Below are positions 29,990 through 46,976 of a stretch of DNA of 64,000 nt, piece after piece. Made by a program: the position numbers and the translations under genes. The first letter of the stretch is position 1, and every line of letters starts with the position of its first letter. Under the pieces are notes generated by a model. It made no database searches. It was not told the origin of the DNA and saw nothing but the letters and a program-made list of their open reading frames with translations. This DNA comes from the human T2T-CHM13v2.0 reference genome, Homo sapiens: NCBI RefSeq assembly GCF_009914755.1, contig NC_060941.1. The stretch is one strand, 5' to 3'.

Positions 29990-32900
29990 CTGAAAGGAAA
30001 ACAGACGCGGTCAGCATCTCCAGTGAGCCCACGCAGGCCTTTCCGGGCTGGGCCCCACCTGCCTGCGTCTCTGGAGTCCTCGGGGTCTCTGTGTGGCCCC
30101 CGTGGCCTGACACCGAGGACACGCCTGTAGTCTGCTGATCCCAGAGGGAGGGGTGCGTGCTGCCTGGCGTGGGGAAGCTGTCGTGGCATGGCGGGTGGCT
30201 CCTGGGACTGCCCCCAGGGTTCAGACTGGCTGGGGGCTTCCTGCCACACACCTTCGTCCCAGGGCTGTTGGGCCTGGGATACGGCCCCCAGTCAGAACTC
30301 AGGTGGGAGGGGCCTTGGATGTCACCCAGCCCTTTGTCACCTCACGTGGGGACCCGTCTCCGCAGTGGGTGATTGGGCCCGGACGTGGGTCACCCTCTGC
30401 CCTCCTGGGCTGCCCAGTCCATGCCAGGACTGACCGTTCCCACTTCTGGCTGAACTCTTGGCTCTGGCTCTGGGCCCGGGGTCCCGCCTGTGCCCTCTCC
30501 CTGAATGCTCTGTGGGTCAGGGACACGGATTCCCTTGTCTCCCTGGCTCCAGGCTTCTTGTCCTGGCAACCTTGGAGGAGCGTGCAGGAGTGAGGGGCCT
30601 CTGCTGCTCTCTGAGGCTGTGGGTGCTTGCAGGGAGGGGCGGGGTCTCCCACAAATGGGTCTGGGCTCGTCTAGTAACTTGGAGGGCCCTGCGAGGGGGA
30701 GAGGGAGACACCGTGGAAAGTGGGAGGGGGCTTGTTGGAGGGTCTTGCCCACATCCCCCTCCTGCGTGCACAGCATGTCCAGTATACACGCACTGAGCGC
30801 CTGCCCTGAGGACCGGTGGGCCTCCTGTACTTTCTTAGAGTCCAGGAGGAAGAGGAGGAAGAAAAGGTGAAGAGGAAGGCCCAGGTAGTAGGGTTGCGGG
30901 TCCCGGGCACTCCCCTACTACTGACTACCCCAGAGGGTGACATGGGAGGGGACATGGCACTGGAGCCCACCTGGGGGTGGCAGGTCCCCCTTCTTTCTTG
31001 TTAGTTTCTTCATAGAGGCCCTAAGATGCTTGAGCACAGTGTCCTCATCCCTGGCCCAGGTATCAACGAACCGGTTGCAAAAACGTGCCCACGGGCCACA
31101 CCTGGACGTCTTCGTGAGGCGCTCTAGGGACAGGGTGGATATCAGGCCAGGGGAGTTACCTGGGAATGGTCACAGCTCATACCCCGTGGCCACTTCAGTC
31201 TCCTACTGGGCGGTGCCGGATCCTTTTGTGGCCACCCCAGGTGTCCAGATACACACAGGAGACTGTGGCTGGGGGGCGATCCGGACAGGGAAGTGCTCAC
31301 CACACTCTCGACTTTCATCTGGGTCATGTGGGGGATGGGCTCGGTGTCACAGTGTCCTGCCCAGCCCACCTGGCCAGACCTCCCTCTGGGCCAGAACAGA
31401 GGATCATGAGGACAGTGTGAGGAAGCTGCCCTCGGGCCAGTCGGGGTCTGACCCCAGGGCTCCCCAGGCCCCGCTGGGCACACGTAGACTTACTCTGCTG
31501 AACCTTAAAGGCGATTCTTGTTATCGGCATCAACGCCTGTTCGCCTTCTACCAGATACACGTCCCACAGGCGCAGGGTGAGCCCGAGAGAGATCTGTGGG
31601 GACAGCAGGTGTGAAAGAACCTGGTCCTTCCAGGCTGGGGCTGGTGGCTCGAGCTGCGCACACTGGGGCTTCAGTCTCCAGAGTCAGTGACCTTCCCCAT
31701 GAGGGTCGCCTGAGCCCTCCAGGACGCTGGGTCAGACAAGGTCTTGAAGCTCCTCATGGGGGGCACTCATTTGAGTGGGGATGTGGCTCCTGGAGAGAGG
31801 GGCTTGCCCAGGGCTTGAGGCTTCCCTGAGCCCTCTCAAGTCGGGTCCTGGCCCAGTCTGCCCATGAGGCTGGGCCTGAGCCCCAGCCATGGCCCTGGGA
31901 TGACCCCCCTTGGGCAGAGGGTTTTGCTTGTGTGTCCTTTGGGGACCCGCCTGAGCCTCCTGTGGGCTGGGAGTGAGCCAGACCCCCGGGCTGGGGAAGC
32001 AGGGCACTGCAGGGCAAGGAAGGTCCCTGAGCCAGGGTCTCCCTATGCCTCCTTACCCCGTCAATCAATATCCGGATGAGGCAGCCTAACGGGGAACACT
32101 GCCCACATAGATCTTTCTTGTCCTGATGGAAGCAACAGAGGTGCTCAGGCCACTGGGCTGCCCTAAAAACCTCCCTCTTCCAGGGCCTCTGAAGACCCTT
32201 CCCCTAGTGCAGAACACTGGGCGGTGTCCAGAGCTCCCCACAACACTGTCACCTTCCCACACTCCCGGTGGACACACTGCCCTTTGCCCTGCTCTGTGGG
32301 AGCTGGGCCCCCATCCCTGTGCCTCTGTCTCCTCCAGGGCAGGAAAGGAAACCAACTCCCAGCCCATGGAGAACCCGACGTCCCAGGTCAGGACCTGGCT
32401 GGGACTCAGCCAGTCACCAGCCCCACGAGGGGCTCCAGCCCCCCTGCTCCTACAGCCCCACGGGAGGCAGGGCCTCTGGGAAGAGCTGAGGGGACCATAA
32501 ACTCACCTGATGCCCCATGGTCTTGGGTTGTGACGTGGCTACCACATGCTCCTGTTGGTCTTGGAGCCCCTGGACGGTCCCGCCATTTGGGCTGTGAAAT
32601 CCTGAGAAGCCCCCAGCCCATCATGAAATCAGAGCCTTCCCCCAAGATGTGGAGCCATCAGCTGCAAGAGCTGGGCAGCTGGAGAGGCCCCCAAACCCCA
32701 AGGCCTCCCACCCTCCCATCTGGTGACCCCAACATGCGGCCTTTACCCTGGGGAGGTGGGGCGGGAACATTCCCTGGAGCCTGGCTGGAGGTTCCCCTGG
32801 AGGCCTCCTGGGCCAGGGTGCAAAAAGGGCAAGCCTGACTTTCAGGCCACGACAGGGTGGCCGGAACTGGGTGGGCGCTGGGCTTCCCGGTCATCTCCTG

Positions 32901-46677: not shown

Positions 46678-46976
46678 GGCCAGGCGTGGTGGCTGACGTC
46701 TGTAATCTCAGCACTTTGGGAGGCTGAGACGGGCGAATCACGAGGTCAGGAGTTTGAGACCAGCCTGACCAACAAGGTGAAACCCCATCTCTACTAAAAA
46801 TACAAAAATTAGATGGGTGTGGTGTTGCACACCTGTAATCCCAGCTACTCAGGAGGCTGAGGCAGGAGAATCACTTGAACCTAGGAGATGGAGGTGGCAG
46901 TGAGCCAAGATCGCATCATTGCACTCCAGCCTGGGTGAGAGAGCGAGACTCCATCTCAAAAAAAAAAAAAAAAAAA
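46678..46976 (+). mobile_element. Full-length AluS spanning the left arm/spacer boundary, TSD gaaaaatgcacaaga
   Basis: TSD at 46663-46677 and 46977-46991. Confidence 0.9.

What the first reader, a model, noticed from the sequence alone, without database searches (positions are those of the whole stretch)
31035..46874. Arm divergence is polarised: inner ~7.7 kb near-identical, differences concentrated in the gene body
Seen (left coordinates): substitutions at 31252, 31254, 32297, 32393, 33126, 33322, 34520, 34942, 35630, 35757, 36040, 36139, 37579, 38676 and 39118, and a 1-bp G-run indel at ~32758-32761. Between 39119 and 46874 I found only a poly-T length difference (T23 at 42364 versus A24 at 52649). 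That check relied on ORF pairs and spot checks, not a full alignment. Inference: either arm-to-arm conversion is strongest near the loop, or a very young palindrome had one gene body replaced by conversion or crossover with another paralog at about 39.1 kb.
Basis: partly seen in the sequence, partly recalled or inferred. Interest (0 to 1): 0.7.

Follow-up and report, generated by a model that had tools for sequence, protein, structure and literature searches.

The report
Identical stretch in TBC1D3 mirror duplication
Two mirror-image copies of a human gene region match letter for letter over the 7.8 kb next to their turning point, likely because that stretch was recently copied from one arm to the other, which is ordinary behaviour for such duplications.

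Summary
The reading changes beyond the window. The arms are 73 kb long. The gene body differs at 1.70/kb, against 1.67/kb for the rest of the arm outside the inner tract (P=0.89). There is no gradient outside that tract, and a second substitution-free tract of 6.3 kb lies 21-27 kb from the loop. So nothing is concentrated in the gene body. No CHM13 paralog replaced either gene body: K and D are each other's best match, with 5 private alleles each. The loop ends in a fold-back junction with a 2-base microhomology inside NPEPPS-derived DNA. In simulations with uniform conversion, a run this long somewhere occurs in 30-72% of matched replicates, and next to the loop in 3-20%. Best reading: one recent arm-to-arm homogenisation block, kept near the loop by tight linkage. 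A young fold-back followed by allelic crossover stays open. This is ordinary concerted evolution.

The parts
1..46874 (+). Left arm of a 73.3 kb inverted duplication. It continues left to window -26383 and carries TBC1D3E and TBC1D3K.
   Evidence: blastn of the fetched region against itself, 99.55% over 73328 columns
48161..64000 (-). Right arm. It continues to window 121438 and carries TBC1D3D and the terminal TBC1D3.
46875..48160 (.). Loop (spacer), 1286 bp. It is the direct continuation of the left arm, as in cluster-1 copy A.
48161..48162 (.). Fold-back junction with a 2-base microhomology (GT). Only the window's own copy spans it among the matches returned.
   Evidence: copy A runs colinearly to 48162 and then diverges; 1 of 41 matches spans the junction, the window itself
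39119..46874 (+). Inner substitution-free tract of the left arm, 7756 bp, with one 1-base poly-T length difference
48161..55917 (-). Partner of the inner tract on the right arm
   Evidence: last substitution pairs 39118 with 55918
41787..48162 (+). NPEPPS-duplication-derived segment (most of the inner tract plus the loop), joined to the TBC1D3 core
   Evidence: matches G000:C17:39106818-39113176 (99%, inside annotated NPEPPSP1) and 48399676-48406070 (97%; naming that place NPEPPS rests on the 9.16 Mb distance in PMC12871316 and on recall)
29106..39118 (-). TBC1D3K gene body up to the tract boundary: 17 substitutions against TBC1D3D (1.70/kb), the arm-wide background. Coding differences are I117T, K354Q and one synonymous change; both frames are open (549 aa).
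19554..25844 (+). Second substitution-free and indel-free tract, 6291 bp, 21-27 kb from the loop (partner outside the window, about 69191-75481)
   Evidence: the cluster-1 paralog scores 97 bits lower over the same stretch
27020..28851 (+). Densest patch of arm differences away from the outer edge: 12 substitutions, of which 8 are K alleles absent from D, E and the terminal copy

Best explanation
The two 73 kb arms differ at a uniform rate of about 1.7 substitutions per kb, broken by a few identical blocks, and the 7.8 kb block beside the loop is likely one recent arm-to-arm copying (gene conversion) event that has not yet been broken up. Shown: the arm extent, the uniform background, a second identical block far from the loop, K/D-specific identity in both blocks, and the fold-back junction. 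Inferred: conversion makes paired sites identical anywhere on the arms. An ordinary crossover between homologous chromosomes then separates paired sites at a rate proportional to their distance (twice the distance to the loop plus 1.3 kb). Identity would therefore last longest next to the loop, and far sites would settle at allele-level divergence, with no need for a higher conversion rate at the loop.
For: Gene-body rate equals the rest-of-arm rate and there is no gradient outside the tract. A second zero tract of 6291 bp and a third of 4.4 kb lie far from the loop. The tracts are not intrinsically invariant: copy A differs from K=D at 14 sites in the inner tract, and the cluster-1 copy scores 97 bits lower on the middle tract. 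1 of 5 long poly-A/T runs differs between the arms in the inner tract, against 12 of 20 outside the three tracts; 5 of 5 differ between K and A. The gene bodies of K, D, E and the terminal copy are almost equidistant (15-17 differences in 8073 columns) with incongruent shared sites. Guitart et al. group C, D, K and L because their differences are below allelic level (PMC11610581 section 9). In simulations with uniform conversion plus crossover, divergence in the inner 10 kb is about 35-60% of that in the outermost 10 kb, and the profile is flat without crossover. Multi-kb tracts (mean minimum 2068 bp, maximum over 9 kb) are reported for Y palindrome P6 (PMC3723533).
Against: This is one haplotype, so no conversion event was observed. 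Even in the model, a loop-adjacent run of 7.75 kb or more appears in only 3-20% of matched replicates with crossover (8 parameter sets), against 4% without (2 sets); two of the 8 sets gave 3% and 5%. The joint pattern with a second long run appears in 1-12%. Parameters were assumed, not fitted. The model assumes a fixed two-arm structure at equilibrium, whereas 130 cluster-2 configurations are reported (HPRC2 preprint). K and D share only 1 allele against all four other copies in the gene body (37408) and 1 in 39119-40900 (40019), so they are barely sisters there. This fits later exchange of a whole outer arm equally well.
Confidence: 0.6

Rival explanations
1. The fold-back itself is young. 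The inner tract is the untouched remnant of the founding copy, and a later allelic crossover near 39.1 kb exchanged the whole outer part of one arm (not only the gene body) for that of another haplotype.
For: The step at 39118 is sharp with a flat plateau beyond it. The tract abuts a junction found once among the matches. K and D share few alleles in the gene body. Zero substitutions in 7756 bp bound the block's age below roughly 390-450 thousand years at 95% (the mutation rates 4.3-5e-10 per year are recalled).
Against: The outer K/D-specific tract of 6.3 kb needs further conversion or a short allelic coalescence anyway. The arm ends pair TBC1D3E with the terminal copy, whose upstream sequences are very different, so a simple young copy of one arm is not enough. 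From recall only, not checked here: GRCh38 has a similar head-to-head pair.
Confidence: 0.2
2. Arm-to-arm repair is mechanistically anchored at the loop (hairpin or fold-back pairing across the short 1.3 kb spacer), so conversion is truly more frequent there.
For: The longest of 105 gaps is the one at the loop, and the spacer is only 1286 bp.
Against: There is no gradient once the single tract is removed. Uniform conversion with crossover puts the longest run at the loop in 6-22% of matched replicates. A 6.3 kb tract lies far from the loop.
Confidence: 0.12
3. The identity is partly an assembly or polishing artefact of near-identical arms.
For: The arms are 99.5-99.9% identical, and the reads could not be examined.
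Against: Inference: the inner tract is the part best anchored by the unique loop and junction, so it should be the best resolved. The arms keep 104 differences elsewhere, including private alleles.
Confidence: 0.05
4. One gene body was replaced by conversion or crossover from another TBC1D3 paralog at about 39.1 kb.
For: 5 of the 15 differences are alleles shared with other paralogs, showing patchy exchange within the family.
Against: K and D are mutual best matches over 5.5 kb of gene body (9863 bits; next best 9846 for K and 9834 for D). Private alleles split 5 and 5. The same divergence continues for 52 kb past the gene. A donor absent from CHM13 was not testable.
Confidence: 0.03

Closest known systems
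TBC1D3 cluster 2, group TBC1D3-CDKL (Guitart et al. 2024, PMC11610581)
   Same: Same locus and genes. C, D, K and L are grouped because paralog differences are below allelic level, and inversion and gene conversion are invoked for the family.
   Different: In the passages and the section I read, the word palindrome does not occur (0 hits), and neither the arm-divergence profile nor the fold-back junction is described. Figures and supplements were not read.
Human Y palindromes under arm-to-arm gene conversion (P6; Hallast et al. 2013, PMC3723533)
   Same: Large inverted arms with a unique spacer; multi-kb conversion tracts (mean minimum 2068 bp, maximum over 9 kb).
   Different: This palindrome is autosomal, so allelic crossover can uncouple the arms. 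Arm divergence is about 0.17% against about 0.02% on Y, and the spacer is only 1.3 kb. Conversion there was shown on a phylogeny; here it is inferred from one haplotype.
Interlocus gene conversion in segmental duplications and its interplay with crossover (Vollger et al. 2023, PMC10172114; Hartasanchez et al. 2014, PMC4132178; preprint 10.64898/2026.10.23.761411)
   Same: Conversion tracts are common in high-identity duplications. Crossover between duplicates uncouples them at a rate R = 4Nr times the distance.
   Different: The passages I read do not treat inverted arms (0 hits for 'inverted'), where that distance shrinks towards the loop. Applying it to a palindrome is my inference.

Membership tests
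Large palindrome (inverted segmental duplication) | Two inverted arms of more than 8 kb at more than 99% identity around a short spacer (criterion recalled) | tested here: met
   73.3 kb arms, 99.55%, spacer 1286 bp
Palindrome under arm-to-arm gene conversion | Tracts where the two arms are closer to each other than to any other paralog | tested here: met
   Inner tract: K-D 0, K-A 14. Middle tract: K-D identical, cluster-1 copy 97 bits lower.
Palindrome under arm-to-arm gene conversion | All three states of an arm variant (both ancestral, mixed, both derived) across haplotypes or species | not testable with these tools
   Only one human haplotype is held; no relatives
Palindrome under arm-to-arm gene conversion | GC bias of fixed changes | not tested
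   Too few K/D-shared changes to count (1 in the gene body, 1 in 39119-40900), and no outgroup letters for the NPEPPS-derived part
Fold-back inverted duplication by microhomology-mediated template switch | Ancestral sequence runs colinearly through arm and spacer, then switches to the inverted strand at a short microhomology | tested here: met
   Copy A is colinear to 48162; 2-base overlap with the inverted arm start at 48161. The mechanism is inferred from the junction.
Gene-body replacement by a paralog (gene repositioning) | One copy matches a third paralog better than its partner over the gene | tested here: not met
   K and D are mutual best matches among the 9 cluster copies scored; pairwise counts
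Loop-polarised conversion gradient | Divergence rises steadily with distance from the loop | tested here: not met
   No trend without the single inner tract (P=0.24 and 0.90); with it P=0.012 at 2 kb bins and 0.17 at 5 kb bins

The most novel reading that the evidence does not exclude
The short-loop TBC1D3K/D palindrome is repeatedly re-synchronised from its turning point: fold-back pairing across the 1.3 kb loop copies one inner arm onto the other, keeping the first exon and upstream DNA of two TBC1D3 copies identical in most haplotypes, beyond what linkage alone explains.
Probability: 0.12. Interest if true: 0.55.

Novelty: new member of a known kind. Interest (0 to 1): 0.2.

Why it matters
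It is mostly ordinary: a known, highly variable gene cluster showing the patchy identity expected of duplications under gene conversion. Its use is as a test case. In an autosomal palindrome the distance between paired sites shrinks towards the loop, so identity should peak there even with uniform conversion. With 437 resolved TBC1D3 haplotypes reported (HPRC2 preprint), this locus could separate that linkage effect from a loop-anchored repair mechanism, and the single-base junction at 48161 could date the palindrome. No functional effect is shown. The identical tract covers a non-coding first exon and upstream DNA, and non-terminal TBC1D3 copies are reported to lack a proximal promoter signal (PMC12871316).

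Tried and rejected
A 10.2 kb gene-body search scored only 3 of 171 candidates and missed the close paralogs; it was uninformative and was replaced by 5.5 kb searches. The first simulation under-counted conversion at the inner edge; it was corrected, whose numbers are used. The arm-age line used a wrong count (122 instead of 104) and is discarded; by hand, 104/62119 gives about 1.7-1.9 million years at recalled mutation rates, and that figure is a coalescence depth, not the palindrome's age. One search stopped at a translation error after printing the site patterns; the coding comparison was redone for K and D only. Low mutability as the whole explanation was rejected: it accounts for part (K-A 1.8/kb inner against 3.3/kb in the body), but 0 against an expected 8 or so remains (P=0.012). 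In the NPEPPS-derived part alone, paralogs are close anyway (K-A 6 substitutions in 5.1 kb; 20-24 bits over 3.3 kb). Alu-Alu homologous recombination at the junction was rejected because the two sides are not at matching Alu positions (read by eye). The outer 3.4 kb of the arm (108 of 212 substitutions) was dropped from all rate tests because it is the divergent E-versus-terminal upstream. Only 2 of the 5 cluster-1 copies were read as letters; the other 3 were compared by bit score only.

Full report
Observation. A full alignment of the two arms inside the window (31035-46874 against 48161-64000) gives 99.89% identity with 15 substitutions and 2 single-base indels.

The window cuts the structure. 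With 70 kb of left flank and 100 kb of right flank, the inverted repeat runs from window -26383..46874 to 48161..121438: 73.3 kb at 99.55%, arranged E, K, loop, D, terminal TBC1D3. Of its 212 substitutions, 108 lie in the outer 3.4 kb, where the upstream DNA of E and of the terminal copy part; these were left out of rate tests. The other 104 lie in 69.9 kb. The K gene body has 17 in 10013 bp (1.70/kb) and the remainder outside the inner tract has 87 in 52106 bp (1.67/kb); binomial P = 0.89. Without the inner tract there is no trend with distance from the loop (P = 0.24 and 0.90); with it, P = 0.012 at 2 kb bins and 0.17 at 5 kb bins. Two more substitution-free tracts exist, 19554-25844 (6.3 kb) and -14036..-9602 (4.4 kb). 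The true picture is a flat background with a few identical blocks, the longest at the loop.

The blocks are specific to the K/D pair. Cluster-1 copy A is colinear with K through the whole inner tract and loop, and differs from K=D at 14 sites there. All 5 long poly-A/T runs differ between K and A, and only 1 of 5 differs between K and D, against 12 of 20 between the arms outside the three tracts. The cluster-1 paralog of the middle tract scores 97 bits below the perfect arm match. Against this, the inner DNA is less mutable: GC 41-54% and 14-21 CpG/kb, against 60% and 27 in the body. K-A divergence is 1.8/kb inside against 3.3/kb in the body, and the corrected contrast is P = 0.012.

No paralog replaced a gene body. 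Over 8073 columns the distances are K-D 15, K-E 16, K-T 15, D-E 17, D-T 16, E-T 17 (T = terminal copy), and 24-31 to the two cluster-1 copies read. Of the 15 K-D differences, 5 are private to K, 5 are private to D and 5 are shared with other copies in conflicting patterns. In 5.5 kb searches of the genome (36 candidates scored, 24 matches listed each), K's best non-self match is D and D's is K (9863 bits; next 9846 and 9834), ahead of the other 7 cluster copies. A donor absent from CHM13 could not be tested. K and D share only one allele against all four other copies in the gene body, so they are hardly closer to each other than to E or T there. The coding differences are I117T, K354Q and a synonymous change at codon 220, and both frames are open.

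Anatomy of the centre. The stretch 41787-48162 derives from the NPEPPS duplication (99% to a place inside NPEPPSP1, 97% to the 17q21 source). Copy A continues past 48162 into different sequence, while the window switches there to the inverted arm with a 2-base overlap. Only the window's own copy spans this junction among 41 matches. This is the signature of a fold-back by template switching; the mechanism is inferred.

How surprising is the tract? Poisson is the wrong null, because neighbouring sites share a genealogy. I simulated two arms on one chromosome with uniform arm-to-arm conversion, allelic crossover and coalescence (edge handling corrected). The parameters were assumed: theta 0.8 or 1.2 per kb, in line with 8.5-10.8 SNVs per 10 kb in PMC10172114; crossover 4Nr of 0, 0.4 or 1.2 per kb; conversion 4Nc of 0.55-4; tracts of 1.5 or 6 kb. 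Among replicates with 80-130 differences, a zero run of 7.75 kb or more occurs somewhere in 30-72% (all 10 sets). It sits next to the loop in 3-20% with crossover (8 sets) and 4% without (2 sets). The longest run abuts the loop in 6-22% against 5%. With crossover, mean divergence in the inner 10 kb is about 35-60% of that in the outermost 10 kb; without crossover the profile is flat. The joint pattern with a second long run is rarer, 1-12%. So the tract is unremarkable in length and only mildly unusual in position, and polarity needs no conversion gradient. The model is crude for a cluster with 130 reported configurations.

Mechanism. Most likely (0.6) the block is one recent arm-to-arm conversion, or an equivalent shared-ancestry event, that persists because few crossovers fall between sites so close together. 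A young fold-back with a later allelic crossover near 39.1 kb (0.2) gives the same picture in one haplotype. A loop-anchored repair process (0.12), an assembly artefact (0.05) and paralog replacement of a gene body (0.03) follow. The block is younger than about 390-450 thousand years at 95% if recalled mutation rates hold.

Comparison with what is known. Guitart et al. (PMC11610581; passages, section 9 whole, supplement list only) group C, D, K and L as indistinguishable from alleles and invoke inversion and conversion. PMC12871316 (passages) describes the NPEPPS duplication and reports no proximal promoter at non-terminal copies. PMC3723533 (passages) gives multi-kb tracts in a Y palindrome. 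PMC4132178, PMC10172114 and preprint 10.64898/2026.10.23.761411 (passages) give the theory and prevalence of interlocus conversion. The HPRC2 preprint, PMC11393467 and PMC8981503 were seen as passages. Preprint 10.64898/2026.01.14.699191 had no hit for six terms. Six searches showed no paper whose listing or passages describe this arm profile or junction. Figures and supplements were not read (bioRxiv supplements are closed), so the structure may well be drawn there.

Verdict. This is a new instance of a known kind: patchy concerted evolution in a large inverted duplication. Interest 0.2.

Noticed in passing
window 27020-28851: 12 arm differences in 1.8 kb just downstream of TBC1D3K. In 27400-28900, K scores 32-41 bits below self against each of the 6 closest copies, so its haplotype there has no donor in this genome.
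   Followed up: partly
window 48161-48162: Fold-back junction with a 2-base microhomology, a single marker for dating and genotyping the palindrome.
   Followed up: yes
G000:C17:37201401-37220800 (L018, L019): A cluster-1 copy carries the same TBC1D3-to-NPEPPS-piece junction as K and D and runs through the loop sequence, so that junction is shared between clusters 1 and 2 and predates the fold-back.
   Followed up: partly
window 30992 and 35757: Two amino-acid differences between TBC1D3K and TBC1D3D (K354Q, I117T). At both sites D carries the terminal copy's allele and K carries E's.
   Followed up: partly
window 39183-41782: Divergence among other TBC1D3 copies rises upstream of about 39.2 kb (K-E and K-T 3-12 per kb against about 2 in the body), close to where the K/D identical tract begins; family-wide homogenisation seems to fade there.
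   Followed up: no
window 25682-26851 and -8963..-7789 (with partners 68184-69353 and 102863-104037): A 1.2 kb repeat at 94% identity occurs four times in the 73 kb arms.
   Followed up: no
window 41782-42661 against 608-1883: Tandem Alu-like blocks of about 0.55-0.9 kb at 79-84% identity to each other, in both arms; the Alu label is read by eye.
   Followed up: no
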